A stretch of DNA of 64,000 nt, taken from a virus. Lineage: Duplodnaviria; Caudoviricetes. Both the position numbers and the translations under genes were made by a program. This document shows positions 1 through 16,194 of the stretch, one piece after another. Location of the stretch: positions 817 to 64,816 of IMG/VR virus record IMGVR_UViG_2634166353_000002. One strand, written 5' to 3'. Numbering within the stretch: the stretch's first letter is position 1; the number at the start of each line of letters is the position of its first letter. The notes under the pieces were generated by a model. It worked only from the letters and a program-made list of their open reading frames with translations. It was not told the origin of the DNA and did no database searches.

Positions 1-74
1 GGTCGAAGGCGCACGCCTGGAAAGCGTGTAGGCGGGAAACCGTCTCCAGGGTTCGAATCCCTGTCTCTCCGCCA
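1..74 (+). tRNA. tRNA-Ser(GGA), 5' end cut by the window edge; integration target
   Basis: Anticodon arm CACGC-CTGGAAA-GCGTG, long variable arm, T arm GGTTCGAATCC, ends in CCA at 74. Confidence 0.95.
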
Positions 75-80
75 CCCACA

Positions 81-93
81 TAACCCATTGATA
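81..93 (-). promoter_or_regulatory. IHF-box-like site next to attL
   Basis: Reverse complement TATCAATGGGTTA matches the IHF consensus WATCAANNNNTTR. Confidence 0.55.
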
Positions 94-240
94 TTGAATG
101 GAATTATATCGGAATTCCTCTGGGATTTTCCGTGCCTTGCGCGTCGATGAGCAGTGCGGAGACGCCATTCAGAGACGCGTGTGGCGGAGTTTCGGCGTTG
201 TGTCTCTGCGGCCAGCATCATGGGTGTCGGTTTTGGCCGT

Positions 241-384
241 GGATTTCCCTGCTAGCAGGGAAATTGCAGGGAATTTTTCTGATATGCGTGCCTGCACGTG
301 CTGATCAGTGCTAATTTCTCAGTTGTTTCAATGGCCTGAAGGGCAATTCCCTGCACCGCGCAGCAGGGAATTTGCAGGGAATTC
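241..384. repeat. Two copies of TTCCCTGC..GCAGGGAA(A/T)TTGCAGGGAATT; possible recombinase arm sites
   Basis: Copies at about 245-275 and 347-383, each with an inverted plus a direct GCAGGGAA unit. Confidence 0.7.
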
Positions 385-441
385 TGAGATCACGCAGTGA
401 TGTGGATTTGAGTTTCCTTCACCGGATGAACGAGAAAGTCC

Positions 442-2100
442 TCAGACCCCGTACACCTTCTCCTGCTGATCCCAATCCAGAGACACGGGTGCAGCGAGGA
501 TACGCTTGAGAGTAACGTTTGACGGCAAGGTACCGTCTCGGATCGCCGCCTGAATTTTTGGCGAGAGAAACGCGAGTTGCCCGCGCGTCCTGATGTAGGG
601 ATCGTGATGTCCGGCGTTGCGGGCAATGGTGGCGAGGGGAACGCCGTCGCGCAAACTGGCGACCCAGCGATGGGCATCACGAAGCGTCCGGAGTAAAATG
701 GGATCAGGGGTCGGTTCAGGGGTGCCAAGAACGAGCCTCGCCTCGACGCCGCGGCGGCGCAGGACAACTGACGCGGAGAGCTGGTGGAGATCAGATGCCA
801 TCTCGTCTGAGGCAACGCCGAGTTGGCTGGCGAGGTGCTCACAATCAAGCGTCAGCTGGATCCGCTGCGGGGCGATCGTGCCACTGACGATCAGCTGGCA
901 CATGATCGCGGCATCTTTGCGGCGCAGAGCTTGCACAAGCTGGCGTGCATCGGTGAGCAAATTGTCGCCCGCCCGGAGATCTGGCTGTCCCAGTACATGA
1001 TGATCGCGGGCCGCACGCTCAAGATGGTCGGCGATGAGGGCACAGACCGCCGCTTCCAATCGTGGCCCCGAAAGCCGCCAGCCGGTGGGGTCGGTCCCGC
1101 CTGAGATCAGGCGGTTGGAGATATAGTAGTGATGACGCCGCCCGGATTTGACGCTGTGGGTTGGGGTCAGTCGGTCGCCTGTCTCGTCCCGCAGTTTGCC
1201 GGTAAGCGGGGCCGGCGTTGATCCTGCGGCCGCGCCGCGTCGGCGCATGGCGGTTTTTTGCAGCTTCTGCTGGACGCGGGCCCAGAGAGCCGCGTTGATG
1301 ATGGCCTCGTGCCGTCCTGGCCAGAGCTGATCCTTGTGCCGGATTTTACCAAGATAGACTGGGTTCACGAGGATGTGGTGAATCTGGCCGCGCGACAGTG
1401 CGCCGCCGCCCTGGGTTCGTCCGGAAGCGAAGCACCTGAGCTTCGAGCGCAGCTCCAACCGGTCGGCCTCTTGGGTCGTGGTTCGAAGGGACCCCAGGTC
1501 ATCGTAAAGATGAAACAACTCCCGTACCGTCTCGGCCTCCGCAAGATTGATGACAAGTTCGCGGGTGTTTGGATCGGGGTGGGGGTCATAGCCCAAGGGT
1601 GGAAGGCCGCCCATCCAGAGACCCTGCTTTTTGGAGGCGGCGATCTTGTCGCGGATGCGTTCGGCGGTGACCTCCCGCTCGAACTGGGCGAAAGAAAGAA
1701 GCACGTTGAGGGTGAGCCGTCCCATGGAAGAGGCGGTGTTGAAGGCCTGGGTGACAGAGACAAAGGAGCACCCCGCAGCATCAAGGCGGTCGACAAGCTT
1801 GGCGAAGTCAGTCAGCGATCGGGTGAGGCGATCGATCTTGTAGACCACGACCATGCCGATACGGCCAGCGTCGATCTCGGCGAGCAAGCGTTGAAGCGCG
1901 GGACGCTCAAGCGTACCACCGGAAACGCCACCATCATCGAAGCGGTCTCGCACCAGCCCCCAACCCTCATGTTTCTGGCTGGCGATATATGCAGTGCAGG
2001 CCTCATATTGCGCGTCGAGCGAGTTGAAGCCCTGGTCCAGTCCTTCCTCAGAAGATTTGCGGGTGTAGATCGCGCAACGGGTTTTCTTCTGGGTCGCCAT
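442..2100 (-). CDS. Large serine recombinase (resolvase + recombinase domains) with fused C-terminal accessory domain
   Basis: CAIYTRKSSEEGL catalytic motif, VVYKIDRLTRS, FAQFEREVTAERIRDK; likely start MATQKK at 2100, abutting the DUF2924 stop. Confidence 0.92.
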   Translation of the reverse strand: MATQKKTRCAIYTRKSSEEGLDQGFNSLDAQYEACTAYIASQKHEGWGLVRDRFDDGGVSGGTLERPALQRLLAEIDAGRIGMVVVYKIDRLTRSLTDFAKLVDRLDAAGCSFVSVTQAFNTASSMGRLTLNVLLSFAQFEREVTAERIRDKIAASKKQGLWMGGLPPLGYDPHPDPNTRELVINLAEAETVRELFHLYDDLGSLRTTTQEADRLELRSKLRCFASGRTQGGGALSRGQIHHILVNPVYLGKIRHKDQLWPGRHEAIINAALWARVQQKLQKTAMRRRGAAAGSTPAPLTGKLRDETGDRLTPTHSVKSGRRHHYYISNRLISGGTDPTGWRLSGPRLEAAVCALIADHLERAARDHHVLGQPDLRAGDNLLTDARQLVQALRRKDAAIMCQLIVSGTIAPQRIQLTLDCEHLASQLGVASDEMASDLHQLSASVVLRRRGVEARLVLGTPEPTPDPILLRTLRDAHRWVASLRDGVPLATIARNAGHHDPYIRTRGQLAFLSPKIQAAIRDGTLPSNVTLKRILAAPVSLDWDQQEKVYGV

Positions 2101-2507
2101 CAGCGCGTTTCCTTCAGACCGAAGAAGCGAGGCCCGGACCAGCGGGCGCCGGTGATCGCCCGTGCGACGGAGGACAGCGAAGGATAAACCTCTTGGTTCC
2201 ATCGATATCCAGCTTCCGTGATCTCCACGATGTGGGTCTTGCCGTTCCATTCTCGCAGGAGGCGGTCGCCGGGCTTGAGTTTCGGTGAACTGTTTACCTG
2301 CGCTCCCGCCGTTCTCTTTTGGAGATCCGCCACAAAGCCGCGAAGCAGCCCGCCGCGTTGGCGGGACTGGACCTCAAAAGCGACGAAGCGACGCAAGAAG
2401 GATCGGCTCAGGTTTTTTGGTACGGGTGTTCCGAAGAGATGGTCCCAGGCGGCGATGAGCGCCGCCCGGTCCATGGTCTCGATCTCTGCGACGGTTGGAA
2501 GCTTCAT
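2100..2507 (-). CDS. DUF2924 family protein
   Basis: PGDRLLREWNGKTHIV..YRWNQEVYPSLSSVARAITGARWSGPRFFGL; typical position upstream of a serine recombinase. Confidence 0.88.
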   Translation of the reverse strand: MKLPTVAEIETMDRAALIAAWDHLFGTPVPKNLSRSFLRRFVAFEVQSRQRGGLLRGFVADLQKRTAGAQVNSSPKLKPGDRLLREWNGKTHIVEITEAGYRWNQEVYPSLSSVARAITGARWSGPRFFGLKETR

Positions 2508-2746
2508 GCGGCTTCCGGGGTGGCTGTGATCCGGTAGACGGGCGGCGACCCGACCTTCTTTTTCGGCATCCGGTCGATCTTGTACCCGGCCTTGCGCAAG
2601 GTGCTGAGTGCTGCCCGCACGGAGTGGGCCTGCCAGCCGGTCGCCTCCTGCAGGGCGGTGATATCTGCGCCGGATTTGCGCGCCAGAAGCCTGCGGACGA
2701 GTGCCGCCTTGGTCTCGCGATTGGGGATGTCATTGGCTTTGGTCAT
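2504..2746 (-). CDS. DUF3489 family small DNA-binding-like protein
   Basis: GADITALQEATGWQAHSVRAALS motif. Confidence 0.82.
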   Translation of the reverse strand: MTKANDIPNRETKAALVRRLLARKSGADITALQEATGWQAHSVRAALSTLRKAGYKIDRMPKKKVGSPPVYRITATPEAA

Positions 2747-3093
2747 GATTGCCTCCTCGGATGTATCGGGCCTGGCGACGTGCCGGTCCTACCGAGATGC
2801 GCCCGGACTGCGAACCGGGCGTGTTTCCAATGACACTCTGTTCGCAGGCGAAGTCCAGTCCTCTTTGGCGCCGAGCTGTCCCCCGTCTAACCGTTTGTCA
2901 ACCATGGAAAAAACATCTTGAACGCCGCGGCAAACGTCGTTAACTTTTTTGATATCCCGTCGCGGCAGGAGGCCTCGACCAACGATCATGCAACCCACTT
3001 TGGGTGCAGAATGAATCGTCTGGTTGTCCCTGCTGCTTCGACTTCTTCCAGCTTCATTCTTGCATCCCAAGGTCAACCCGAAGGATGCGACAC

Positions 3094-4632
3094 ATGAGCA
3101 AGCCATCTGATCTCAAATCTCAAAAAGACATTATGGTTGAGCCGCAGCCAGGCTGCGAAACGCCGTCGACCACGACAGAGTCTGGCAAGATCGCTGCCGA
3201 CAGGACAACACTTCACGGCCAGAACGACCTGTTTCGCGAACTTGCGTTTCTCTGGCTCGCGGTCAATCTCATCGACGCGGCCCCACGCCGGGTCCGGCGC
3301 GCGCTGAAAAGTCAGGAAGAGGGTGTTATCCGGGCTATTGAGCGCTTCGGCTTCCGCATTCCGATTCTGGTGCGCAGCAAACCTGGGGGTGAGCGCTACG
3401 AGGTCATCGATGGGCATATGCGGCTCGCGGCCGCTCAACGACTCGGCGCGGACCAAGTGCCCTGCATTCTGGTCGATGATCTCCCCGATGTCGAAATCCG
3501 CCGGCTGGCGCTTTCCTTGAACAAGCTTCAGGAGACCGGCGCCTGGGATGATGATGCGCTCAGGATGGAGATCAGCGAGATCATCGAAATCGGGGAAACC
3601 ATCGAGATCCCCGGATTCGCCATGCCCGAGATCGAGGCCATTCAATTTGCGCCCGCAGAAGGTGCGGAGGCTGATCCTGCGGATGATATCTCGGCGGAAA
3701 TGTCCGACACAGAAAGCACTGCCGTGACCAGGCGCGATGATGTCTGGATTTTGGGACATCATGTGATCGTCTGTGGGACCGCGCGTAATGGCGACGCGCT
3801 CACTGCGGCGCTGGAAGGTGCATCGGTCGACGCCATCTTCACCGATCCTCCCTATAATGTGCGGATCAAAGGCCACGTCCGTGGTGCGCGCTCTGGCTTT
3901 GATGAATTTGCCGAGGCCTCTGGTGAGATGTCCCGCGAGGATTTTGTGGCTTTCCTTGTGGACACAAGTGGTGCCGCCACAGCGAAGCTCAAGCCGGGTG
4001 GCGTGCTCTTTGCCTGTATGGATTGGCGGCATGTCGGCGAAATGACCGAGGCGCTGGAAGCGCTCGAGTTGGAGTTGCTCAACATTTGCGTCTGGGTCAA
4101 GACGCAACCCGGCATGGGCAGCTTGTACCGCAGCCAGCACGAATTGGTCTTTGTCGCGCGCAGGTCAGGGGCCGGGCATCGGAACAACGTGCAACTGGGC
4201 AAGCATGGGCGCAACCGCTCGAACGTCTGGACCTATGCCGGCGCGACCGGCGGTCGGGCCGACGCGGACGACGACTTCACCTTGCATCCAACGGTCAAAC
4301 CCATCCGCATGGTCATGGACGCGCTGCTCGACGTGACCGGGCCTGGCGATCTTGTTTTCGATCCCTTCCTCGGCTCCGGCACGACCCTGTTGGCCTGTGA
4401 GCGCACACGTCGGCGCTGCTTTGGAGTCGAGATCGAGCCGGCATATGTCGATCTCGCGATCCGGCGCTGGCAGGAGATGACTGGCGGCAAGGCAACTCAC
4501 GCCGAGAGCGGTGTGCCGTTCGACGAGATCGCATCTGTCCAACTTGGTGAGCGTGGCGTCGCAGGCACGCGAACCGATGCAAACCAGGAAACTGTGCAGC
4601 GCGCCAAGACGCCCGACACGGAGGACTTCTGA
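3094..4632 (+). CDS. ParB/Srx N-terminal domain fused to N6/N4 DNA methyltransferase
   Basis: VIDGHMRLAAA (ParB-like), DPPY, HPTVKP, DPFLGSGTT; start taken as ATG 3094. Confidence 0.9.
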   Translation: MSKPSDLKSQKDIMVEPQPGCETPSTTTESGKIAADRTTLHGQNDLFRELAFLWLAVNLIDAAPRRVRRALKSQEEGVIRAIERFGFRIPILVRSKPGGERYEVIDGHMRLAAAQRLGADQVPCILVDDLPDVEIRRLALSLNKLQETGAWDDDALRMEISEIIEIGETIEIPGFAMPEIEAIQFAPAEGAEADPADDISAEMSDTESTAVTRRDDVWILGHHVIVCGTARNGDALTAALEGASVDAIFTDPPYNVRIKGHVRGARSGFDEFAEASGEMSREDFVAFLVDTSGAATAKLKPGGVLFACMDWRHVGEMTEALEALELELLNICVWVKTQPGMGSLYRSQHELVFVARRSGAGHRNNVQLGKHGRNRSNVWTYAGATGGRADADDDFTLHPTVKPIRMVMDALLDVTGPGDLVFDPFLGSGTTLLACERTRRRCFGVEIEPAYVDLAIRRWQEMTGGKATHAESGVPFDEIASVQLGERGVAGTRTDANQETVQRAKTPDTEDF

Positions 4633-5099
4633 TGGCAAACGGCGAAGATCAGGACGACGACCATCAAGTCGGATACGGGAAGCCACCCAAGCAACACCGG
4701 TGGAAAAAGGGACAATCCGGCAACCCATCAGGCAAGCGAAGATGCGAGGAGCGGATAGAGGAAACGTTCAGGCGAATTGCCGAAGAAGAAATTCTCGTCA
4801 ACCACAATGGATCACAGACCGCGATGCCTCAACGTGAGGCGGTGATACGATCCGTTTTGGCCAAGGGCATGAAGGGGGATGTTCCTGCATTCAAGGCTAT
4901 CACGCCCTTCTTGGATAGGGGCGATTCATCTGGCGTTGCGTCGGCGAATCTCACCGCTGAACTTGCGGACCTCGACGTTCTCCAGACGCACGCAGACTGG
5001 GTTGGTTTGGTGGAGCGGGCTCAAAAGGAACTACAGGGTTCCACTGACACGCCAGTTAGCGAGGAGGAACAGGATGACCATCCCAACGACAACTCCTGA
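4632..5099 (+). CDS. DUF5681 protein, terminase small subunit-like
   Basis: VGYGKPPKQHRWKKGQSGNPSG motif, immediately upstream of TerL. Confidence 0.8.
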   Translation: MANGEDQDDDHQVGYGKPPKQHRWKKGQSGNPSGKRRCEERIEETFRRIAEEEILVNHNGSQTAMPQREAVIRSVLAKGMKGDVPAFKAITPFLDRGDSSGVASANLTAELADLDVLQTHADWVGLVERAQKELQGSTDTPVSEEEQDDHPNDNS

Positions 5100-6495
5100 T
5101 ATCCTGCGTGGGCTCTATTTCTCGGTCCCTTTTGCCTATGTTCAGCGCGCTTTCGCCGAACTTCGCCCTGGTGTTTCTTTCCACTATGGTCACCACGTCC
5201 GGGCCATTTGCCATATGTTGGAGAGGGTCGAGAGTGGCGAGGTGACGCGCCTGCTGATTCTGATGCCTCCGCGGCATCTGAAATCGCATTGTGTCAGCGT
5301 GGCCTTCCCGGCCTGGGCGCTTGGGCGAGACGCCTCTCGGCGGATTATCTGCATGAGTTATGGTCAGGACCTTGCGGAGACCTTCAGCCGCGACAGTCGG
5401 CGGCTGATGCAGGCTCCATGGAGCCAAGCGGTATTCCCAAGGCTCCGCCTCGACCCGAAACGTACTGCCGTTGGCGAGCTTCGTACGACCACGAACGGCT
5501 ACCGAATTGCAACGTCGGTCGGCGGTCCACTTACCGGAAAAGGGGCTGACATCCTCATTCTCGACGACCCGAGCAAAGCGGAAGACGTCGCTTCTGAGGC
5601 CAGGCGCGACATAGTCTGGGAGTGGTTCACAGGAACGGCCATGACGCGTCTTGACAACCCTCGGACGGGCGCCGTGATCGTCGTGGCGCAACGTCTCCAC
5701 GAGGATGATCTGCCTGGTCGCCTGCTTGCAACGGAGGATTGGGAGGTTCTCGAACTTCCAGCAATCGAGACCCGGGATCGGCACATTCCGTTAGCTTCGG
5801 ACGTAAACTGGGCGCGTCCCGTGGGGCATGTGCTGCTTCCTGAGCATATGGACGAGCAGGCGTTCAAGGCAAAGCGCCGAGAAATGGGGCCGCGCTCATA
5901 TGAGGCGCAATATCAGCAATCACCGTCACCAGCAGGCGGCGGCATAGTCCGCCCTGAATGGTTCGGCACCATCCCGGACACGCAACACCGGAGCGAATAC
6001 GAAGCCATCATCCAGAGTTGGGATACCGCCGCAGTCCCGGGGGAGTCCAACGATTACTCCGTTTGCACAACATGGGGCCTGATCGGGCCGTATATTGATC
6101 TGCTCGACGTCCATCGCCGACAGTACCTTCAGCCCGACCTACTCAGGATTGCCGCCGATCTCCGGGCGAAATGGCGGCCAAACCTGCTCATCGTCGAAAC
6201 CGTTGGCAGCGGACGCGGGGTCTACGACCATCTTCATCGGCAGGACCGCACCGGAATCCGCTCACACAGGCCGAAGGAGGGCAAGGACGAGCGCATGTCG
6301 ATCCAGTCTCCGAAGATCGAGTGCGGTGAAGTTCGCCTGCCGCGAAACGCGCCATGGCGGGAAAGTTTTCTCACGGAAGTCGCCGCTTTTCCCAATGGAA
6401 AGTACGATGATCAGGTCGATAGCATGTCGCAGGCGCTCTTTGCCCTGGATCGTGGTCTTGCAGAGTTAAGGCATTGTTCACGCTGCAAGAAATGA
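5074..6495 (+). CDS. Terminase large subunit (Terminase_6/6C type)
   Basis: LILMPPRHLKS Walker A-like, LILDDP Walker B, QSWDTA and DDQVDSMSQAL nuclease motifs. Confidence 0.88.
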   Translation: MTIPTTTPDILRGLYFSVPFAYVQRAFAELRPGVSFHYGHHVRAICHMLERVESGEVTRLLILMPPRHLKSHCVSVAFPAWALGRDASRRIICMSYGQDLAETFSRDSRRLMQAPWSQAVFPRLRLDPKRTAVGELRTTTNGYRIATSVGGPLTGKGADILILDDPSKAEDVASEARRDIVWEWFTGTAMTRLDNPRTGAVIVVAQRLHEDDLPGRLLATEDWEVLELPAIETRDRHIPLASDVNWARPVGHVLLPEHMDEQAFKAKRREMGPRSYEAQYQQSPSPAGGGIVRPEWFGTIPDTQHRSEYEAIIQSWDTAAVPGESNDYSVCTTWGLIGPYIDLLDVHRRQYLQPDLLRIAADLRAKWRPNLLIVETVGSGRGVYDHLHRQDRTGIRSHRPKEGKDERMSIQSPKIECGEVRLPRNAPWRESFLTEVAAFPNGKYDDQVDSMSQALFALDRGLAELRHCSRCKK

Positions 6496-6529
6496 ACGTT
6501 TGTTCGCCGTGCGAGCAGAACCGGACTTT

Positions 6530-6555
6530 GGGTGCGAATCCCGTCCCCTCCGCCA
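6530..6555 (+). repeat. Degenerate copy of tRNA-Ser 3' end (att junction between the elements)
   Basis: GGGTGCGAATCCCGTCCCCTCCGCCA versus GGGTTCGAATCCCTGTCTCTCCGCCA at 49-74; same length, identical last 8 nt. Confidence 0.7.
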
Positions 6556-6876
6556 CTTGCCCCAGCGAAAGCGTGCTCCCGATCCGGCTGCGGCCGGATT
6601 TTTCCGTTGTTTTCGAGGGTTATGCGGGTGGGGCTGAGCAGCGGCCCCGGCGCTAGACGGGCCGGAAGCGGTCTCTCAGTGCGGATATTCTCCGGACCTG
6701 ATGACTGCGCGGATTTGGTGAATAGCTTGCAAGCACCTGGCATTGCGATGTTTTTTCGAGGTTGCACTAAACACTTCGACGCCGGTGGCGCTCGGCGTGA
6801 TGGAACTGACATCGAACTTTCGCCACGCGGTGATAACCAGAAAAATGCTGCGGCTAGAGAGTGCTGACACTGGTCA

Positions 6877-8127
6877 TTAGGGAATATCAACCTGAAGTTT
6901 CCGTCGCCCGAGGTATGCTTCCATCACCTCATTTACACTCAAATACATACAGTTGATGCTCGGGAAGCCGATGGCTGGTGCCTGATCTGTGCCAACCACA
7001 GAGACTTGTGTGAATGGGCCCTCATCATGGTATCGAGCAGGAAAAACAAATCCTCCGGTGCGCACCTCTTCGCCGACTACTGATTTTAGGGCGAGATGAT
7101 AAAAGAGTTGCTTTACAATGTCGGGCCAACCGGGAGAGTTCGAAATTGCCGTCGCATCGTAGTACTTGGCGTCTAGAACTTTCAGTGTCGTGCCATCTCG
7201 TATCACGATATCAGTCTGCATACCTCGTTCTTGCACCAAGAGGTGTCCATTGGAGGCTTGTCTAAAGGCCGGTTTAGGTAGCCGTGAGTTCCACCCGCCT
7301 TCAACTCCTGGTAGGACTTCTCGCAGCATTCTCTCCCAAACTGCATGGAAGTCGTCGATACCATACAAGGTAATGCCATCATCTTGGCGGGGGTCTTCAT
7401 CAAGGTACGAGATCAGAGAGCGCGCTAGTCGGATTGCCCGTTGCGCGAACAAGCTTGGCAGCAGTGATCGCAGTTTTTGGGACCATAGAAGCCGCGGAAA
7501 GTTAGGCGAAGCATAAGCTTTAAGTTCCGCCTCTCGACCTTGCAAGCCGTCCAACCACCATCCGTGATATTCAGCAACTTCCAGAAGCACAGCGACTTGG
7601 ACGCGCGCTAGAACGCTTTCATGTGCATTCGAAGTTCGACTTGTTCTAATGTTGGGGTAGACGATGTTTCCGTTGCCCGAGACCATGGCGAGTTCACGTA
7701 CTGCGGTGCGCGGCCAGTTGGGCTTGCCGGAGTTCCTTGTGGCGTAGCGTAGCCTTTCTGCAAAGATTCCATACCTTCGAAAATCATCAGCCAAATCTTG
7801 AACTGTGGAGATCAGACCAACGTTCCCATTTTCCGCTGAAGAGAGGCCTTGTCGGTCTCGAGTATCTTGGCCGTACTTTGCTAGTACTCGCATCGTGGTT
7901 CTGGCTATGCGCTGGTTCTCGGTTGCTGAACTTCGGAGCGCCTTGCGAGGCACGAAGACATAGCTCTCTGAGGAACTTGTGCACGCTAGCCCGCAAAAAT
8001 GAACCGTATCCTTTTGAAGCGTCTTGCCTTGATCTTGGCGACGAAGTTCTGACGTCAGCTTTTGGTAGCATTCTTCAAGATAAAGAACGGCAACCCGGTC
8101 TTGAAGGACACGAGGCTCGTCAGGCAT
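6877..8127 (-). CDS. McrC-like / LlaJI-family restriction endonuclease subunit
   Basis: YGIDDFHAVWERML, TDIVI..VLDAKYY PD-(D/E)xK motif, PDIVKQLFY; ATG overlaps the McrB-like stop. Confidence 0.8.
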   Translation of the reverse strand: MPDEPRVLQDRVAVLYLEECYQKLTSELRRQDQGKTLQKDTVHFCGLACTSSSESYVFVPRKALRSSATENQRIARTTMRVLAKYGQDTRDRQGLSSAENGNVGLISTVQDLADDFRRYGIFAERLRYATRNSGKPNWPRTAVRELAMVSGNGNIVYPNIRTSRTSNAHESVLARVQVAVLLEVAEYHGWWLDGLQGREAELKAYASPNFPRLLWSQKLRSLLPSLFAQRAIRLARSLISYLDEDPRQDDGITLYGIDDFHAVWERMLREVLPGVEGGWNSRLPKPAFRQASNGHLLVQERGMQTDIVIRDGTTLKVLDAKYYDATAISNSPGWPDIVKQLFYHLALKSVVGEEVRTGGFVFPARYHDEGPFTQVSVVGTDQAPAIGFPSINCMYLSVNEVMEAYLGRRKLQVDIP

Positions 8128-9646
8128 CGCCTTCAACGTCCTCAAGTGCCGCATCCAGGGCACCTAAAAAGCCTTCAGCGAAGACCGGTCCGTTTTGAGA
8201 TACGCGGTGAGACAAGGCCCCGTAAGTCTTGACGACTGCGGTATTGAAGATGATTTCGCGCCCATGATGGCGAAGCAGATCGTCCCAAAGGTAGATCAGC
8301 AATTTCCCTGGCACTAAGTCACTTGAGGCAAGTTCAACGTCCGACACAAACCAAGGCCCCAATAGGCGATCTTCGGCGATTGATAGATGATCGGTCAGAT
8401 AGTCATTCAAGATGCGGGCAAAGTTTGACCATAAGATCGATGCCTGGTTGCCGTCTGCTTTGACAACATTGAAACGCCCATTCGGTGAGATTGCGTAGTC
8501 GATATTGATGTAATGTTGTTTCCAGCGGCGACGAAAGGCGGTATCCAGTGGGAAAACGCCCTGGTCCGCGCTGTTCATGGTGGCTAGTAGCCAGAGATTA
8601 GCTGGCAACCTGAGCTTCTCAATCTCCTGACCGCACTCCACACGTAACCAGGCTTTGAACTCATCAGTTGGAAAGTCTGCATCGTACCTGCCGAGGCCCG
8701 TCGCATCCCGATCCAACAGAAGGAAAAGGTCCCCAAAAACGGCAGCGGCTGGAGCGCGGTTGAGTTCTTCTATGACAAGGAAGACCTCTTCATTCGGGCG
8801 GAGAATGGCCGCCCTGAGAGCGTGCGCAAAAGGTCCAGGTGAGAACTCGTAGGTTACATTGCCATCTCGAGTGACGGGCTTAAGCGCTCCTACAAAATCA
8901 CCGTTCTGAAGATCCGGGTGGAAGACTGTCCGAATACTGTGCTTGTCGCCGATGCGCTCATTGACTGCATGGGTCTTGCCTGTTCCTGGCGCACCATAAA
9001 AAATCAGATTTTCCGCGCCTGTGACCGCTTCAGGATTAGCGGCATCTTCTTCGTGATCGACAAATCCAGGGGGAACATGGAGAGTGTCCATGTTCGCGAC
9101 ATAGTAATGAATAAACTCTGGTAGAAAGCAGCATGCATATCTGTTGTTTATCCGATCGAAATAGCGTCCAAAGCCGGTTTTGTACGCATCCGCGATGGCG
9201 TTCACGTTGGTGTAGCAAGTGTTCGGATTGGCATGGTTCAAATAAGCAGAAGTGTCCCAGGCGCAGATGACAGGGTCGTTGCCGGTTCCATTGTAAACTC
9301 CTAAGAGCAAGCACCGATGGTCGCCGTTCTTTCCTAGCTGAAAATGATCAGCGTGTTCTTCATAGTCTCTGTTTAATTGTATGCCTTTCTCGTCTGCACC
9401 GCGGTTTCGCCAATTTAGGTTTCGAAATGGGTAAATCTCGAGTGTCAGTTCTTCATTTGCTTTGCTGATTTCAGCAGTAAACCTGACATAGCTAGATCGT
9501 GGAGGAGGATCATGCCGTGTTAAGTTTACGGTCCAGCCAAGGGAACCCAAGGCCCCGTTCAGGATATCTTCCCACTGATCTGCCGTTGCACGATCAGGTT
9601 CGGGTCCATCGTATAGTTCCCCATTAGGGCGAGATTGCGTAGCCAT
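8120..9646 (-). CDS. McrB-like AAA+ GTPase subunit
   Basis: GAPGTGKT Walker A, IEELNRA Walker B, MNSAD (McrB NxxD signature), LDTAFRRRW. Confidence 0.88.
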   Translation of the reverse strand: MATQSRPNGELYDGPEPDRATADQWEDILNGALGSLGWTVNLTRHDPPPRSSYVRFTAEISKANEELTLEIYPFRNLNWRNRGADEKGIQLNRDYEEHADHFQLGKNGDHRCLLLGVYNGTGNDPVICAWDTSAYLNHANPNTCYTNVNAIADAYKTGFGRYFDRINNRYACCFLPEFIHYYVANMDTLHVPPGFVDHEEDAANPEAVTGAENLIFYGAPGTGKTHAVNERIGDKHSIRTVFHPDLQNGDFVGALKPVTRDGNVTYEFSPGPFAHALRAAILRPNEEVFLVIEELNRAPAAAVFGDLFLLLDRDATGLGRYDADFPTDEFKAWLRVECGQEIEKLRLPANLWLLATMNSADQGVFPLDTAFRRRWKQHYINIDYAISPNGRFNVVKADGNQASILWSNFARILNDYLTDHLSIAEDRLLGPWFVSDVELASSDLVPGKLLIYLWDDLLRHHGREIIFNTAVVKTYGALSHRVSQNGPVFAEGFLGALDAALEDVEGDA

Positions 9647-10039
9647 GAAAACTGCCGTTGCTTGAGTGTCTTGGGATGGACACTAATCACATTTGTAGAA
9701 CTTGGCTATCAGGTTTTGGTTTGGGATGGCGTTGTTGTGCATAGGCTGAAGGCGGCTGCATCTTGCGAATACAGCGTGGTAGCTACCACCGCCGAAGCCG
9801 CGCCGAAACGAAGATGTGAAGCGCCCCGGGTTTCCCGGAGGCTGGTTGGTTTGGGTTACGCGGCTCGCTGCTGCATGTCGAGCTGGCCATAGTGTGCGGC
9901 TTCCGCCTCTGCTGGCGGGAGGCGGTGTCAGCAAATTGTGTTGGCGCGAGGGCCTGGAGCGAGCAGCAGCCCGAGCGCATCAAGGTAGGAGCGGTCCGCG
10001 TTGTTCCGGGCGGCGTGCCATCGGCCGTAGGCAACAAGG

Positions 10040-10975
10040 TTATGTGAGGCGGGGCCGCAAAAAGGGCTGCGTGAAGGCTCGAAAGCGGGCAATCAGGGCG
10101 TTCACGGTGTTGATGTGGTGGCTTCGCGGGGTGCGCTTCGTCCTCCGCCCTGCGTTGAGCGCGAAGTGGGGGATACGCTCGTCCTTTGCGATACGCTCGT
10201 AGGTGGCGTGGCCGTCGGTGCAGAGCACCGCATCGGGCGCCATCACGGGTAGCAGGGCGCCGGTGATCGCCGCCTAGCCGGCGTCAGCGATGGCTTCGAA
10301 GGCACGGTGGCCGGGCCCGGTCCGTGGCTGCGAGCAGTTTCTTCTCCCAGGCCCGCCAGCCGCCTGGAGGCGCCGTAAAGGCGCCGCCGCGCCGCGGTAA
10401 GTCCGCCACCTCGGACGCGGTGGCGCAGGGTGGTTCGCAGGGTCGTCACGGTGCCGAACCCACTCCCACGAGCCCTTTCTGCTTTCGCGCTGGTGCGGTT
10501 CGTCGGCTTCGACGATGCCGGCAAGGGTGCCGTCTGTCTCTGGCGTCAGGGCGCCGATGATCGTCATGCGCCAGCGCCAGACGCTGTGACGCGACGCGCC
10601 CAGCACCTCGGCCCCGCGGCGGCAGGACATCGGCTGGGGCGCCTCGATCATGTCGCGCACAAGCGCAGCCACCAGGTCTGGGCGATGCATCCTGGCGAGC
10701 GGCGTGCCGCTCCGTCCCGACCAGGTCAACCGGCAGTTCGAGCGCCGCCATCGCTGTGCCCCCGTGCGCGTTCGGCCCCACCGACTGCGCTCGTCGGTGC
10801 CGCAGCGCGGGCAAGACGTTGCGGGACCGCCAGCCTCGGCGCGGGCATCGATTTCCAGGACGACCTCGGCCCGTTCGTGCGCCCCGGCCACCAACCCCTC
10901 CGCTTGCCGCAACGCGTATGGTGTCAGGCGGGCCAGAATGTGGCCAAACTCGGCCGGATCGAAATGGGAAATGGC
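10040..10975 (-). pseudogene. IS1595 DDE transposase split across reading frames
   Basis: CPRCG zinc ribbon, GIVEADE, then in another frame APDAVLCTDG and HINTVNALIARF; boundaries approximate. Confidence 0.8.
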
Positions 10976-11029
10976 GGGTCTCCTGGGATGGCGGGTATCT
11001 CGGACACTACCTACCCTACTGGAGAAGTA

Positions 11030-11044
11030 GAACAAAGGTGGAAC
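11030..11044. promoter_or_regulatory. Alphaproteobacterial LexA (SOS) box
   Basis: GAAC-AAAGGTG-GAAC = GTTC-N7-GTTC on the transposase strand, directly inside the TIR. Confidence 0.65.
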
Positions 11045-11228
11045 TAACGCGGTTTGCTGACACCGCCTGGCGGGACATGTCCGATCGGCTAGGTCGCAAA
11101 ACTCCAAGTCCCCGCCGTCGCGTTGAGTGGCTACACCGTACTGGGCATCGTCGTCACCGATCTCGCGGCATAGGTGCGTCCGGAAAAGGGGAAGAAAGTG
11201 GTTCACTCTCTTTGCAAAAGCGAGCCCT

Positions 11229-12689
11229 TCAGAGCGGCTCAATATTTAATCTCGTTAGCGCAGGACTATAGCTTGGGGCTGCTGCCGAGAAATCATAGGA
11301 ACGTACGATTGTTCCTGAGTTCAATTTCGTCTTTTCGCAGCTTTGCCGTCTGGCCCACATGGATCGGATCCGTGGCATGGATACGTCGACCAACGTCACA
11401 AGATCCGCGGACAACGGAAAATCAAGGATATTGGAGCGCGTCACATGAAAACCGTCCCCAATGCTGCGCCAGTATTCAAGGAACACATCTGAAGCGACGA
11501 TACCCAGGAACCGATAGAAGCTTTCACGGTCGTTGAAGCGGAAGATATGCACACCACTACCGGCCTGACCACGAACAGAAACGTAGTTGCGGGCAACGCT
11601 GCCGATGTAGAGTGCATGGCTCCCCCGATTGTCCGCCAGATCGCCCAGATGATAGGCAAACTGCTGATGTTGCAGGTACCGCGCCATTGCGCCCGAAGAT
11701 GGTCGGATGAATTGGTCAGTTATTCGGTATTCTGTCACGTCGTAGAGTTCTGGGCTTCCTGCGAGAAAGCCCGCGCGTTCAGAAGTACTCCATCTGTAAA
11801 GCGGTGACGAGTAAAGGCGATGCTCAGTGTTTGCTAAAGCAGAAACGATAGTGCAGCGCTGGCTGTTTGCCTTGTTTGTATTATCGCTTTGGGGCTTACC
11901 TGATTTAAAAAGCGTATCAGGTATATTGTCGAAGTGACTCGCATAGACCGCAAATCTCCTAGATCGCAATTTGTTGCGCAAAGCCGCATAATCGCGACTG
12001 AAGGCGATAGATAGCGGAACAATGAAGTGCATAGCGGCAAGCGGTGCTGCAATCTCAAGGCAACGATCGAGAAAGTCTGCGTAACTATTCTTCCATTTTG
12101 CACCCTTTGGGTTGGAAACAAACGGCGGGTTACCGAAAAGACAAACGGGGCGGGAAGACTTTTCGCCTTGATACGTTAGAAAATCTTTATGTTCGAAATA
12201 TGGCGTGAAATAGTCCGCACCTAGAGCGGAGTTGATAACAGAGAACTGACGCTTGGCGTAATCAAGAGAAGCAGCATTAATATCGACCAGGTGCAAATCA
12301 AGGTCGTGCATAGCCTCTAATGGAACGCCAAGATCGAGAAGTTTTCTAAGTAAAGCGAATACGAGGACACCGGATCCGCACGAGGGCTCTATAAAACGAT
12401 GATTCCGGACAAGTGCGGTTGCCTGCTCAGGGCCGGATATATTGCTCGCGTCAAAAAACTGGTTCCAGAAGAATCGCGCAACGTCGACAGGGGTGTAATA
12501 GGAACCGGACAGCTTGCGTGCCTGCTCAGACTTGCATGGCGTGTAGTAGGCGAGATCGCGCTCGTCCTTTTCAGCTTGATGCATCACACGATCCAGAATC
12601 ATTTTCGCGCCATCTGCAACCGCCCCTTCATACGAAAAAACGTTTGCCGGTTGTTTCTTGTCTTTTTGGAGTGGCGCGGCAATATTCAT
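11229..12689 (-). CDS. Amino (N6-adenine/N4-cytosine type) DNA methyltransferase
   Basis: YYTP, IEPSCGSG SAM-binding motif, GNPPF catalytic motif; ATG overlaps the C5 MTase stop. Confidence 0.88.
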   Translation of the reverse strand: MNIAAPLQKDKKQPANVFSYEGAVADGAKMILDRVMHQAEKDERDLAYYTPCKSEQARKLSGSYYTPVDVARFFWNQFFDASNISGPEQATALVRNHRFIEPSCGSGVLVFALLRKLLDLGVPLEAMHDLDLHLVDINAASLDYAKRQFSVINSALGADYFTPYFEHKDFLTYQGEKSSRPVCLFGNPPFVSNPKGAKWKNSYADFLDRCLEIAAPLAAMHFIVPLSIAFSRDYAALRNKLRSRRFAVYASHFDNIPDTLFKSGKPQSDNTNKANSQRCTIVSALANTEHRLYSSPLYRWSTSERAGFLAGSPELYDVTEYRITDQFIRPSSGAMARYLQHQQFAYHLGDLADNRGSHALYIGSVARNYVSVRGQAGSGVHIFRFNDRESFYRFLGIVASDVFLEYWRSIGDGFHVTRSNILDFPLSADLVTLVDVSMPRIRSMWARRQSCEKTKLNSGTIVRSYDFSAAAPSYSPALTRLNIEPL

Positions 12690-13792
12690 TACAGATGCTC
12701 GATGAGGTGGGAAACCATGTGCTTACCAAGTAGGCTGGGGACAGCATTACCGATCTGCTTCTGGATCGAACGCCGATTCCCGGCAAAGCGATAGCCTTCC
12801 GGAAAAGTCTGGATGGCAGCGATCTCGGGCACGCGTAAGCGGCGATTATTCCAATGGAATGGACCCACCCACGGTCCAGGCTGTGCGGCGATGGTTATCG
12901 ATGGTTCGTCCGGATGAAGCTTATGTAGAAAGTTCCAGAAACGGCCACCTGTGCGGAATGTACGACCGTCATATCTCTCGAGTTTCGACAAAGCGATATA
13001 GTTCTTTCCAGCGGGCACGTGCACAAGTTCGTGGTAGTATGTGCCGGCGCTCGCATCTTCCTGCGGTTCGGCAAAAATGTCCTTATCGAATCTCTCGATG
13101 AAGGCACCAACGCCAACGTATGGTGTGAAGCCATTCATCAGTTCCGGCTTTGCCGGATCGCCATGGGTCGCGTGGGGCAATGGTATGGGTTTGTGGGCAT
13201 CCTTAATGCCGAACACAAAGACACGCTTGCGTTTCTGCGGGACGCCAAAATCGGCGGCGTTCGCACGATACACCGTGCAAGCATAACCAAGCGCTTCGGC
13301 CTCTGCGATAAACTTTTCAAAAATCTTGATGTTTGTGGGGTGCCGGATGCTCTCCACATTTTCAAAAAGGAATCCGTTCGGCTGCAATTCTTGCACAGCG
13401 CGTAGATATTGCCCGAGCATATTGCGGGGGTCGTTTTCGATCAGCCGGTTGTCATTCTTGACCCAATAGCCGTTCTTGGAAAAAGGTTGGCATGGCGGAC
13501 CTCCGATCAGGATGGTGGGTTGCCCATCGCGCCAGTGTCGAAAATCAATCGTTTGGACGTCGGCCTCGATGATTCCGTCTGAGTGAGCTGCCAGACTATT
13601 GAGTCGAAGCGTTTCGGCACTGTCCGGATCGTTCTCGACACAAGCGACAATAGAGGCACCGGCCTGTATCGCGCCGACGTCCAGACCACCGGCGCCCGAA
13701 AATAGACTTACGCAACGAACCACTCTGGCTGCTCCCTTCGTTCTTTCGCGCCTGTCATGACACATGTTAGTTTTATGCGCTCTTCGCGGCAA
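12689..13792 (-). CDS. DNA (cytosine-5) methyltransferase
   Basis: LFSGAGGLD, GGPPCQPFS, ENV, QKRKRVF, QIGNAVP; true start may be slightly downstream. Confidence 0.95.
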   Translation of the reverse strand: MPRRAHKTNMCHDRRERTKGAARVVRCVSLFSGAGGLDVGAIQAGASIVACVENDPDSAETLRLNSLAAHSDGIIEADVQTIDFRHWRDGQPTILIGGPPCQPFSKNGYWVKNDNRLIENDPRNMLGQYLRAVQELQPNGFLFENVESIRHPTNIKIFEKFIAEAEALGYACTVYRANAADFGVPQKRKRVFVFGIKDAHKPIPLPHATHGDPAKPELMNGFTPYVGVGAFIERFDKDIFAEPQEDASAGTYYHELVHVPAGKNYIALSKLERYDGRTFRTGGRFWNFLHKLHPDEPSITIAAQPGPWVGPFHWNNRRLRVPEIAAIQTFPEGYRFAGNRRSIQKQIGNAVPSLLGKHMVSHLIEHL

Positions 13793-14064: not shown

Positions 14065-14442
14065 TCAAAGTCCATGCTGCTGCCTCCACTCCACCGGGAA
14101 TGGCTGTAGAAGCCGTGCCAGCAGCACCTCTGGCCCCTGCTTTCCGTCCAGGATCGCCTCGACAATGTCGGGTGCGAGCAGCGTAAGGCGCAGGACGCGG
14201 GTCATATAGGACGGCGCGATGCCTTCACGCCGGGCCAGCTCGCCGATAGTGATAAACTCCCCCGATTCCAGCAACCGCTTCCAGCGGAAGGCGCGGGCCA
14301 GCGCCTTGACGAGGGTGCTGTCTGTCCGGCGCGGCTGCGCGGCTCCTTCCGGCAACTGGATCTCCTTCCGACCGCCGCGCTTCACGACGCGGAACGGGAC
14401 GCGGAGAGTCACGGTCTCGGGGATCGGTGCACGGCGTGTCAT
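14065..14442 (-). CDS. Accessory protein downstream of the prophage serine recombinase
   Basis: LVKALARAFRW..ELARREG..YMTRVLRLTLLAPDIVEAILDG; resembles the C-terminal extension of the element 1 recombinase. Confidence 0.8.
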   Translation of the reverse strand: MTRRAPIPETVTLRVPFRVVKRGGRKEIQLPEGAAQPRRTDSTLVKALARAFRWKRLLESGEFITIGELARREGIAPSYMTRVLRLTLLAPDIVEAILDGKQGPEVLLARLLQPFPVEWRQQHGL

Positions 14443-15745
14443 GCTGAAACCTCGATATCGCCGGCCAGCATCTCGCGGGCCAGACCGCCAAGACCGTCCA
14501 CGCGGAGGCGGACGTTGAGCCCGTCGGCGCCGATATCGACGCGTTCGACCAGCAGCGCCACGATGCGCGCCTGCTCGGCAGGGAACAACTCGTCCCACAG
14601 CGGGTCGAGCTGCTGCAGGGCCGTCCGGGCGTCGGCCTCGGTGGTTTCGTCGGCGTGGCCGCGTGCCGCCTTCCACGTTCCTGCGACGATCTCCGGCTGG
14701 CGGAACACGACGCGCAACTGGTCGATGACGGCCGCCTCGATCTCGCCCGCGGGCACGCGGCCAACCGGACAAGAACCCGCGCCATGCTTCAGCACCGTCT
14801 GGCTGACATAGTAGCGGTAGAGCTTATCGCCCTTGCGGGTGTGGGTCGGTGAGAAGGCCGCACCATCGGGACCGAAGAGAATCCCCTTCAGCAACGCGGG
14901 CGTCTCGGCGCGGGTGCGCGCGGCGCGCTTGCGGGGGCTCTCCTGCAGGATGGCATGGACGCGGTCCCACGTCTCGCGGTCGATGATGGCGTCGTGCTCG
15001 CCGGGATAGCTATCGCCCTTGTGCACCGCCTCGCCGATATAAGCGCGGTTGTTCAGCATCCGGTAGAGGTATTTCTTGTCGATCCGGTTGCCGCGCGGCG
15101 TGAGGATGCCGCGCTTGCCCACCTCCCGCGCCATTTCCGTCCCCGAGCCGATTTCGAGGAAGCGCGCGAAGATCCAGCGGACATGCTCGGCATGCTCGTC
15201 GTCAATCACCAGCTTCCGATTCTCGACGCGGTAGCCGTAGGGCGGCACCCCGCCCATCCACATGCCCTTCTTCCGGCTGGCGGCGACCTTGTCCCGGATG
15301 CGTTCGGCCGTGACCTCCCGCTCGAACTGGGCGAAGGACAGCAGGATGTTCAGCGTCAGCCGCCCCATGGATGTGGTCGTGTTGAACGCCTGCGTGACTG
15401 AGACGAAGGTGACCTCGTTGCGGTCAAACACCTCGACCAGCTTGGCGAAGTCGGCCAGCGAGCGGCTGAGCCGGTCGATCTTGTAGACCACCACCACGTC
15501 AACCAGCCCGTCCTCGATGTCTTCCAGCAGCCGCTGCAGGCCGGGGCGTAGGAGCGTGCCGCCGGACAGGCCGCCATCGTCATACTGATCGCGGACCTGC
15601 ACCCAACCCTCGGAGCGCTGGGAGGCCACGAACGCTTCGCAGGCCTCCCGCTGGGCATGGAGGCTGTTGAACTCCTGTTCCAGCCCTTCCTCGGAGGATT
15701 TGCGCGTGTAGATCGCGCAGCGCTGTTTGCGGACGATTGGTTTTG

Positions 15746-15749: not shown

Positions 15750-16194
<445 letters not shown>

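What the first reader, a model, noticed from the sequence alone, without database searches (positions are those of the whole stretch)
49..6555. 6.5-kb self-contained element with its own terminase pair but no capsid or replicon: candidate new phage satellite type
Seen: an interval bounded by the tRNA-Ser 3' end and a degenerate copy of it holds a serine recombinase, DUF2924 and DUF3489 facing a ParB-methylase, DUF5681 and TerL. It has no portal, capsid, primase or tyrosine integrase. The adjacent prophage carries the same gene set, dispersed, with a different (GpA-type) terminase. Known: described satellites (PICI, cf-PICI, P4, PLE) generally use tyrosine integrases and encode replication functions. 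Inference: this may be a minimal integrate-and-package parasite that redirects a helper's heads with its own terminase.
Basis: partly seen in the sequence, partly recalled or inferred. Interest (0 to 1): 0.8.

Follow-up and report, generated by a model that had tools for sequence, protein, structure and literature searches.

The report
Capsid-less terminase-plus-integrase mobile element
A 6.5-kb mobile element sits in the end of a serine tRNA gene and carries only an integration module and a phage DNA-packaging module; it belongs to a widespread family I could not find described, and it probably spreads by filling another phage's capsids.

Summary
Window 76-6547 is an intact six-gene element. 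DUF3489, DUF2924 and a large serine recombinase face a ParB-methyltransferase, DUF5681 and TerL. The element is bounded by the tRNA-Ser(GGA) 3' end and a tRNA-like copy, which share the 9-nt core CTCCGCCAC.

It is not a deletion remnant. The same unit recurs in about 240 loci examined from genomes, IMG/VR and metagenomes across several phyla. It occurs in four arrangements that reduce to two circular gene orders, each opened at different points. It is often next to a tRNA gene, and no conserved portal or capsid gene accompanies it.

TerL catalytic motifs are 97-100% conserved in 153 homologs, and dN/dS is 0.02-0.27. The element TerLs sit apart from the six nearest phage TerLs sampled (SH-aLRT 98).

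About a third of the packaging trios stand alone without a recombinase, and they too are under purifying selection.

Packaging into a helper's capsids is inferred, not shown. No circular contig was found, and no helper was identified. The neighbouring prophage has a different terminase type.

The closest known kinds are VEIMEs, PICMIs and cf-PICIs. No paper describing this family was found.

This scan has noted the same family before in at least seven other genomes. The window's copy is its minimal, cargo-free form.

The parts
1..74 (+). 3' part of tRNA-Ser(GGA); the gene starts 15 nt before the window. This is the integration target.
   Evidence: ARAGORN on L001; Rfam tRNA match.
67..75 (+). 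attL core CTCCGCCAC: the last bases of the tRNA acceptor arm, discriminator and CCA. Crossover region.
   Evidence: Alignment of attL, attR and a relative in which the tRNA runs straight into the prophage-B-type left end.
76..441 (.). Conserved non-coding cis region next to the att core. It begins with the P' arm CCACATAACCCATTGATATT and holds two clusters of three GCAGGGAAWT sites (243-275 and 345-383, in [-,+,+] orientation, with 11-nt spacing between the + copies).
   Evidence: Six exact copies lie within 140 bp and none elsewhere in the window. The region is 68% identical to the Nioella element. It is conserved in all reading frames, so it is not coding. Similar CAGGGAA arrays lie in the corresponding region of recombinase-bearing Paracoccaceae relatives (next to the tRNA/att junction where one is visible) and are absent at most solo trios (one, L039, has one about 1.9 kb upstream).
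442..2100 (-). Large serine recombinase, 552 aa.
   Evidence: Pfam Resolvase 3e-37 and Recombinase 2e-12; phrog_95 integrase 1e-92; start codon overlaps the DUF2924 stop.
2100..2507 (-). DUF2924 protein, the constant upstream partner of the recombinase.
   Evidence: Pfam 4.7e-36. It is adjacent to the recombinase in 38 of 41 genome loci. The AF2 model (pLDDT 88) has no PDB fold match.
2504..2746 (-). DUF3489 small protein, first gene of the integration operon.
   Evidence: Pfam 2.1e-18.
2747..3093 (.). Divergent control region. It holds a conserved block (about 2795-2870) with the hairpin GCCCGG..CCGGGC and the motif GACRCTCTGTTCG..AAGTCCAGTC (R = A in the window, G in the five relatives aligned).
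   Evidence: Alignment with five relatives, including one in which only the ParB-methyltransferase operon is adjacent.
3094..4632 (+). ParB N-terminal domain fused to a beta-class amino-methyltransferase (DGHMR; DPPY at 251 before FLGSG at 425).
   Evidence: Pfam N6_N4_Mtase 7e-31 and ParB_N 1e-8; phrog_498 7e-102; motifs. A ParB-methyltransferase upstream of the terminase genes is the usual 'ParB-Tls' layout of Paracoccus prophages (PMC6536676).
4632..5099 (+). DUF5681 protein in the small-terminase position. It has a basic N-terminal motif VGYGKPPK..KGQSGNPSGK.
   Evidence: Pfam 3e-21. It is found in 78 of 83 loci directly before TerL. The AF2 model (pLDDT 81) matches only DUF5681 proteins of phages. 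The TerS role rests on gene position only.
5074..6495 (+). Large terminase, 473 aa, last gene of the element.
   Evidence: phrog_38 5e-104; Terminase_6C; weak match to T7 gp19. Walker A, Walker B and nuclease residues are 97-100% conserved in 153 homologs.
6530..6556 (+). attR: the element's tRNA-like P arm GGGTGCGAATCCCGTCCCCTCCGCCAC, with the core at 6548-6556.
6557..6817 (+). Not part of the element. This is the left end of the neighbouring serine-recombinase prophage (TTGCCC..., terminator hairpin 6581-6600). In relatives it follows tRNA-Ser genes directly.
   Evidence: It is 75-89% identical and multicopy in relatives, lies next to recombinases 88-90% identical to the prophage's, and aligns as shown. 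Terminator.

Best explanation
Window 76-6547 is an intact, cargo-free copy of a compact integrative element made of two modules.
- Integration operon: DUF3489, DUF2924 and a large serine recombinase. It inserted the element into the last nine bases (CTCCGCCAC) of tRNA-Ser(GGA). A lambda-like prophage that uses the same target was already there.
- Packaging operon: ParB-methyltransferase, a DUF5681 protein in the small-terminase position, and TerL. This is a complete phage packaging head with nothing to package into.

Proposed life cycle (inferred):
1. While a helper phage is growing, the recombinase excises the element as a circle.
2. The element's own terminase recognises element DNA and pumps it into the helper's procapsids. 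Packaging is most likely as multimers or headfuls, because 6.5 kb is far below a capsid's capacity.
3. The ParB-methyltransferase modifies the DNA on its way in.
4. In a new cell the recombinase inserts the element into a tRNA-Ser gene.

Shown here: gene content, borders and crossover core, family-wide conservation of the unit, absence of virion and replication genes, purifying selection, and a TerL lineage of its own.

Inferred: excision on induction, packaging, dependence on a helper, and the form of the packaged DNA.
For: Borders:
- attL and attR share only CTCCGCCAC.
- In relative G010 the same tRNA runs straight into the sequence that follows attR here.
- The Nioella element at tRNA-Ser(TGA) has the same P' arm and cis region.
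- Tropicimonas carries two elements in tandem, with a tRNA-Ser 3' end between them.

Family:
- There are 554 relatives in species genomes, 276 in IMG/VR and more than 586 in metagenomes.
- In the best 80 loci of each collection the trio is nearly always present.
- Recombinase plus DUF2924 lies within 3 kb in 38 of 58 assessable genome loci and in about 70 of 80 IMG/VR loci.
- No conserved portal or capsid cluster exists.
- The four linear arrangements reduce to two circular gene orders opened at different points.

Function retained:
- TerL motifs are 97-100% conserved in 153 homologs, and only one homolog has a stop codon.
- dN/dS is 0.02-0.27 for all five core genes.
- Element TerLs are separated from the six nearest phage TerLs with SH-aLRT 98.
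- In five of those six phages TerL is followed directly by portal or head genes; the sixth has morons in between.

Other:
- Distribution is patchy: 22 of 301 family genomes match at E <= 1e-60, about 19 of them at 39% identity or more.
- A 5,365-bp GenBank 'Bacteriophage sp.' scaffold from human faeces is the whole element and nothing else. It probably comes from a DNase-treated virus-particle preparation, but that link is not verified.
Against: - There is no direct evidence of excision or encapsidation.
- None of the 160 IMG/VR and metagenome loci has terminal overlaps that would indicate a circle or concatemer.
- The element has no replication gene, so the route to a capsid-filling multimer is unexplained.
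- A terminase must dock on a portal. The only prophage in view has a lambda-type portal and a GpA terminase of another lineage.
- Eighteen of 58 assessable trios have no recombinase within 6 kb or more, lie among ordinary genes, and are still under purifying selection. This suggests the trio may have a function that does not need mobility.
- DUF5681 is called TerS from its position only.
Confidence: 0.55

Rival explanations
1. The packaging trio is kept for what it does to other DNA, not for moving the element. It could be an anti-phage or interference module, for example a terminase that cuts or mis-packages invading phage DNA while the methyltransferase marks self DNA. The serine-recombinase element would be just the vehicle.
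For: - Solo trios among ordinary chromosomal genes are under purifying selection.
- Solo and compact forms are interspersed on the TerL tree.
- A methyltransferase paired with an ATP-driven nuclease resembles a restriction-modification logic.
- Earlier notes of this scan report that larger family members carry defence cargo (unchecked notes).
Against: - No PADLOC model hits anything except the methyltransferase.
- ParB-methyltransferase followed by the terminase genes is the ordinary packaging head of Paracoccus prophages.
- Nothing in the sequences distinguishes this TerL from a working packaging enzyme.
Confidence: 0.2
2. The trio starts packaging in place from the chromosome, as in lateral transduction or a gene-transfer agent. 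Headfuls of neighbouring host DNA then leave in a helper's capsids, and the element's own transfer is a by-product.
For: - There is no replication module, and no circular forms were seen.
- Solo trios are retained.
- Members often sit beside other islands and prophages at tRNA hot spots.
Against: - A recombinase with its accessory genes is kept beside the trio in two thirds of loci, and the gene circle is permuted. Both point to an excised circular stage.
- No pac site is known.
Confidence: 0.15
3. The interval is the two ends of an ordinary prophage whose middle (portal to lysis genes) was deleted.
For: Alphaproteobacterial prophages, including the neighbour and Wolbachia WO, have a ParB-methyltransferase and terminase at one end and DUF2924 plus recombinase at the other.
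Against: - The same compact unit recurs in hundreds of loci from several phyla with intact genes.
- Its TerL lineage was not found next to a portal in any of the roughly 240 loci.
- The best match among 50,697 phage records is 37% identical.
- dN/dS is low.
- The borders are clean att sites.
Confidence: 0.04

Closest known systems
VEIMEs (virion-encapsidated integrative mobile elements of marine bacteria; PMC9618062)
   Same: Small integrative elements (under 5 to 16.8 kb) with an integrase and no capsid genes. Some have serine recombinases and small-terminase homologs. They are carried in full-size helper capsids.
   Different: VEIMEs are defined by having been found as concatemers inside particles, which is not known here. 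They are described as relying on the helper's large terminase. This element brings its own TerL and a ParB-methyltransferase, and it has no replication or AlpA-type genes.
PICMIs (phage-inducible chromosomal minimalist islands)
   Same: Minimal gene content, no capsid remodelling, and packaging as concatemers (as summarised in PMC12822802).
   Different: From my own knowledge, not tested here: PICMIs use a tyrosine integrase with Fis- and AlpA-type partners, live in Vibrionaceae, and have no large terminase.
Capsid-forming PICIs (cf-PICIs)
   Same: A satellite that encodes its own small and large terminase, so packaging is independent of the helper's terminase (abstract).
   Different: cf-PICIs also encode capsid, portal, protease and connector proteins and take only tails. 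This element has none of these.
PLEs of Vibrio cholerae
   Same: Integrated by a large serine recombinase; a phage parasite.
   Different: PLEs are about 18 kb, carry their own replication initiator and several anti-ICP1 genes, and depend on the helper's packaging machinery. There is no sequence relationship here.
Ends of alphaproteobacterial serine-recombinase prophages (Paracoccus prophages, Wolbachia WO, the neighbour at 6.5-60 kb)
   Same: The same module types occur: a ParB-methyltransferase ahead of the terminase genes, and DUF2924 ahead of the recombinase. The neighbour even uses the same tRNA-Ser target.
   Different: Those prophages have 30-50 kb of replication, virion and lysis genes in between. 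The neighbour's terminase is of the GpA type.

Membership tests
Capsid-less terminase-plus-serine-recombinase elements (unnamed family defined here and in earlier notes of this scan) | Operon of ParB-methyltransferase, DUF5681 and TerL, with TerL as the last gene | tested here: met
Capsid-less terminase-plus-serine-recombinase elements (unnamed family defined here and in earlier notes of this scan) | Adjacent DUF2924 and large serine recombinase (with or without DUF3489) | tested here: met
Capsid-less terminase-plus-serine-recombinase elements (unnamed family defined here and in earlier notes of this scan) | TerL belongs to the family's own clade | tested here: met
   The window's TerL pairs with the Tropicimonas element (73% identity) inside the 85-member side of the tree, SH-aLRT 98. 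Only six phage outgroups were used.
Capsid-less terminase-plus-serine-recombinase elements (unnamed family defined here and in earlier notes of this scan) | No portal, capsid, tail, lysis or replication genes between the att sites | tested here: met
Phage satellite (general sense) | Transfer depends on the virion of a helper phage | not testable with these tools
   There is only indirect support: no virion genes, and one whole-element scaffold in a phage collection.
Phage satellite (general sense) | Excises and is packaged on helper induction or infection | not testable with these tools
   No circular or terminally redundant contigs were found. This is uninformative for cellular metagenomes.
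PICI / SaPI | Tyrosine integrase, master repressor, and primase-replicase with its own origin | tested here: not met
   It has a serine recombinase and no replication or repressor domains.
cf-PICI | Own capsid, portal, protease and head-tail connectors in addition to the terminase | tested here: not met
VEIME | Recovered as a concatemer from purified virus particles | not testable with these tools
   The definition is operational.
Defective prophage remnant | Relatives are complete prophages; genes are decaying; borders are not att sites | tested here: not met
Known anti-phage defence systems (PADLOC) | Match to a defence-system protein model other than a generic methyltransferase | tested here: not met

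The most novel reading that the evidence does not exclude
This is the minimal member of a new, phylum-spanning class of phage parasites. They carry a complete terminase holoenzyme and a DNA-marking ParB-methyltransferase, but no virion, replication or capsid-remodelling genes. The bare recombinase-less trios left in chromosomes would act as resident packaging initiators that export neighbouring host DNA.
Probability: 0.4. Interest if true: 0.85.

Novelty: new variant of a known kind. Interest (0 to 1): 0.74.

Why it matters
Known satellites either borrow the helper's large terminase (SaPI, P4, PLE, PICMI, VEIME) or bring capsid and portal genes along with their terminase (cf-PICI). An element that keeps only the integrase and the terminase would be the barest packaging hijacker known.

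It would raise a concrete question: how does a foreign TerL dock on an unrelated helper's portal?

The family is common in soil Acidobacteriota, marine Roseobacter-group bacteria, rhizobia, Ralstonia and gut bacteria. It is routinely scored as 'viral' in IMG/VR because of its TerL. It therefore also matters for virome annotation and for estimates of gene flow.

The window's copy is cargo-free and lies in a cultured-type genome assembly next to a complete prophage. That makes it a convenient test case.

Tried and rejected
- **Deletion remnant:** rejected.
- **tRNA-like copy as a decayed tRNA:** rejected in favour of an attP arm.
- **Rfam:** nothing but the tRNA.
- **Defence models:** only methyltransferase hits.
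- **DUF5681 fold:** no PDB match. The only matches are DUF5681 proteins of phages, so the TerS role stays positional. BLAST of DUF5681 against 50,697 phage records finds only the 5.4-kb faecal scaffold.
- **DUF2924 fold:** a helical domain plus a small beta-barrel, with no significant PDB match.
- **Circular or concatemeric contigs:** none among 80 IMG/VR and 80 metagenome loci.
- **Small ORFs in 76-441:** conservation is at the nucleotide level in all frames, so the region is not coding.
- **SOS or CtrA boxes in the control region:** none recognised by eye.
- **Acetobacter phage phiAO1:** it looked like a terminase among host genes, but it is an ordinary prophage with stress-gene morons.
- **Second recombinase on contig C47 of the same genome:** it belongs to another island at tRNA-Gln, with no trio.
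- **Neighbours of solo trios:** ordinary or unknown genes; no integrase or virion genes.
- **Literature:** searches on DUF5681, DUF2924, DUF3489, ParB-Tls and satellite terms found no description of this unit. The library does not hold subscription journals.


Full report
**What is in the window**

The window is G000:C55:26315-90314. tRNA-Ser(GGA) starts 15 nt before the window and ends at base 74.

Between bases 76 and 6547 there are six intact genes in two divergent, tightly coupled operons.

| Coordinates | Strand | Gene |
|---|---|---|
| 2504-2746 | - | DUF3489 |
| 2100-2507 | - | DUF2924 |
| 442-2100 | - | large serine recombinase, 552 aa |
| 3094-4632 | + | ParB_N domain fused to a beta-class amino-methyltransferase |
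| 4632-5099 | + | DUF5681 |
| 5074-6495 | + | TerL |

- The recombinase ATG shares a base with the DUF2924 stop codon.
- The methyltransferase has DGHMR in the ParB part, with DPPY ahead of FLGSG.
- No other ORF in the interval has a family match.

Beyond 6557 lies a low-GC LlaJI-type restriction island (6877-13792). After it come a second serine recombinase (14439-15905) and a lambda-like prophage with a GpA terminase, lambda-type portal, ClpP protease, capsid E, tail tube and tape measure.

**Borders**

- The 27-mer at 49-75 (the tRNA T-arm and acceptor end) recurs at 6530-6556 with five differences. A pattern that captures both occurs nowhere else in the window; 0.04 matches are expected by chance.
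- The 290 bp after the second copy (6530-6817) is 75-89% identical to multicopy sequences in related genomes.
- In those genomes it lies directly after tRNA-Ser genes of different anticodons, and a few kb from recombinases 88-90% identical to the neighbouring prophage's. It is therefore the prophage's left end.
- In relative G010 the same tRNA-Ser(GGA) (99% identical) runs straight into this sequence, which shows what the site looked like before the 6.5-kb element arrived.
- Comparing the three sequences places the crossover inside the shared CTCCGCCAC (67-75 and 6548-6556). Only the sequence to the right of attL and to the left of attR belongs to the element.
- A short common core with imperfectly similar arms is what serine integrases use, so the 'degenerate copy' is the element's attP arm rather than a decayed tRNA. 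The unit from core to core is 6,481 bp.
- The Nioella aestuarii element, at tRNA-Ser(TGA), has the same P' arm (CCACATAACCCTTTGATATT) and a 68% identical cis region.
- Tropicimonas sp. IMCC6043 carries two elements in tandem, separated by a tRNA-Ser 3' end.

**The unit is a family, not an accident**

- TerL has 554 relatives in one-per-species genomes, 276 in IMG/VR and more than 586 in JGI metagenomes.
- I clustered all ORFs of the best 80 genome loci (39-73% TerL identity). They come from Paracoccaceae and Roseobacteraceae, Sphingomonadales, Hyphomicrobiales, Acidobacteriota, Burkholderiales, Chloroflexota, Spirochaetota and others.
- The only widely shared clusters are TerL (83 loci), DUF5681 (78), ParB-methyltransferase (73), the recombinase (41), DUF2924 (38) and DUF3489. 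The rest are antisense shadows, IS elements or local chromosomal flanks. No portal or capsid cluster exists.
- The best 80 IMG/VR loci and the metagenome loci long enough to read show the same thing.
- Four linear layouts occur:
  1. tRNA | recombinase module (-) | trio (+), as in the window
  2. trio, then DUF2924 and recombinase, then tRNA (-)
  3. recombinase module followed by the trio, all on one strand
  4. tRNA | trio | recombinase module (-)
- These reduce to two circular gene orders, each opened at one of two places. That is expected of a small circle whose att site has moved.
- Of 58 trios with enough flank, 38 have the recombinase within 3 kb, 2 have it at 3-10 kb with cargo in between, and 18 have none.
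- The neighbours of these solo trios are unrelated ordinary genes, with no virion genes and no tyrosine integrase.
- Within the window's own family, 22 of 301 genus-representative genomes have a TerL match at E <= 1e-60, and about 19 of them are at 39% identity or more. Some genomes hold up to three copies. This is a patchy, mobile-element-like spread.
- The window's own genome has a second trio on contig C56 that ends against ccoNOP.

**The terminase is kept working**

- Across 153 distinct homologs these positions are 97-100% conserved: the Walker A PPR..KS, Walker B DD, the QR.H..D segment, and the nuclease residues SWD, E375 and DDQ.D. Only one sequence has an internal stop.
- Nei-Gojobori dN/dS for close and moderately close pairs is 0.05-0.19 for TerL and 0.02-0.27 for the other four core genes. 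This includes three pairs of solo trios.
- The best TerL match in 50,697 phage records is 37% identical.
- On a maximum-likelihood tree of 91 TerLs, all 85 element and solo sequences lie on one side of a branch with SH-aLRT 98, away from the six nearest phage TerLs. Compact and solo forms are interspersed (18 and 17 changes, no better than shuffled labels), so recombinase loss or gain has happened many times.
- Caveats: this was a quick search with one model and only six outgroups.
- In five of those phages TerL is followed immediately by portal or head genes. The sixth has morons in between.

**Other parts**

- ParB-methyltransferase genes directly upstream of the terminase genes are the norm in Paracoccus prophages (36 cases, the 'ParB-Tls locus', PMC6536676). 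The trio is therefore a standard phage packaging head.
- DUF5681 has a conserved basic, glycine- and proline-rich N-terminus and a beta-hairpin plus three-helix body. It has no solved-structure match and resembles only DUF5681 proteins of phages. Its small-terminase role is inferred from position.
- DUF2924 folds confidently but matches nothing solved.
- The 366-bp non-coding stretch beside the att core carries six exact GCAGGGAAWT sites in two [-,+,+] triplets.
- Equivalent arrays lie in the corresponding region of recombinase-bearing Paracoccaceae relatives (beside the tRNA/att junction where one is visible), whichever way the circle is opened, and are missing at most solo trios. The array therefore goes with the integration side or with the whole element rather than with the trio. 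Its binder is unknown.
- A second conserved block precedes the packaging operon.

**Is it packaged?**

This is not shown.

- The one suggestive datum is GenBank MT839917.1, 'Bacteriophage sp.', 5,365 bp, 40% GC, from human faeces in Mexico. It consists of the recombinase, a small ORF, ParB-methyltransferase, DUF5681 and TerL, and nothing else.
- A study of Mexican children's faecal viromes assembled scaffolds of 4 kb or more from chloroform- and DNase-treated particles (PMC8361208). I could not confirm that the accession belongs to that study.
- No IMG/VR or metagenome contig has terminal overlaps.

**Comparison with the known**

- Marine VEIMEs are the nearest described kind. They are monomers of under 5 to 16.8 kb with integrases, sometimes serine recombinases and small-terminase homologs, and no capsid genes. 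They are packed as 8-17-copy concatemers in full-size capsids, and the helper's large terminase is assumed to do the work.
- PICMIs are similarly minimal.
- cf-PICIs have their own TerL but also their own capsid and portal.
- PLEs and EPIPs use serine recombinases.
- None of these is described as having TerL and a ParB-methyltransferase as its only non-integration genes.
- Full-text searches on the domain names and on satellite terms found no description. The library lacks most subscription journals, so a description may exist elsewhere.

**Earlier notes of this scan**

- The same core has been flagged in at least seven other genomes. Follow-up agents called it a capsid-less, terminase-carrying mobile (often defence-carrying) island and judged it undescribed.
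- These are unchecked AI notes and not independent evidence. They agree with what I found, and they add that larger copies carry defence cargo. I saw cargo-bearing copies (L057, L081) but did not annotate their cargo.
- The window's copy is the minimal form.

**Verdict**

- The 'remnant' reading is rejected.
- The element is a discrete, intact member of a widespread mobile family. My own estimate of confidence in this is about 0.9.
- That it spreads by packaging itself with its own terminase into a helper's capsids is the best-supported mechanism, but it is inferred (0.55).
- The retained solo trios keep alive the alternatives of an interference or defence role, or of in-place packaging of chromosomal DNA.

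Noticed in passing
window 6530-6817; L017 4790-4960; L018 17900-18160: A 290-bp sequence holding a tRNA terminator hairpin is multicopy in related genomes. It follows tRNA-Ser genes of different anticodons. It is the left end of prophages whose serine recombinase is 88-90% identical to the one at 14439-15905. This places the LlaJI restriction island (6877-13792) inside that prophage's left arm.
   Followed up: partly
L071 11516-11571; L029 11292-11348; also L102 and L079 just after TerL: In several Roseobacter-group relatives, the sequence after TerL is the 3' half of a tRNA-Met (from the anticodon loop CTCATAA onward), or only the motif CAGGCTCATAA followed by unrelated DNA. Yet the other end of the element abuts tRNA-Ser. 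It may be an attP arm that mimics tRNA-Met, or a scar of another element.
   Followed up: no
window 14074-14385 (-): The C-terminal ~100 residues of the element's 552-aa recombinase match a separate small ORF just downstream of the prophage's 488-aa recombinase (34% identity). The same enzyme is therefore fused in one element and split in the other.
   Followed up: no
L043 vs L045 (two Acidobacteriaceae MAGs): TerL and DUF5681 are 99% identical in protein, but the ParB-methyltransferase is 85% and the recombinase 92%. This points to module exchange between elements.
   Followed up: no
L061 (Anaerolineaceae MAG) vs L067 (Nitrospirae MAG); L062 vs L101: TerLs are nearly identical in MAGs assigned to different phyla or classes. 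This is either very recent transfer or binning error.
   Followed up: no
L025 = G000:C56:980-4396: The same genome holds a second ParB-methyltransferase, DUF5681 and TerL trio (52% TerL identity). It ends about 1.5 kb before ccoNOP. Its left side runs off the contig, so it is unknown whether a recombinase accompanies it.
   Followed up: partly
L079 4600-5500 (Ruegeria sediminis): An insertion sequence has landed inside the element's non-coding att-proximal region. It splits off the att arm from the CAGGGAA array.
   Followed up: no
L277 = LC644971.1 (Acetobacter phage phiAO1) 3792-6495 and 23390-25513: This phage record carries sulfurtransferase, peroxiredoxin, Cu-Zn superoxide dismutase and catalase genes between its terminase and structural genes.
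   Followed up: no
L190 = G000:C47:19403-21001: A third full-length serine recombinase of the same type (50% identity) lies beside tRNA-Gln in the same genome, with no packaging trio nearby.
   Followed up: partly
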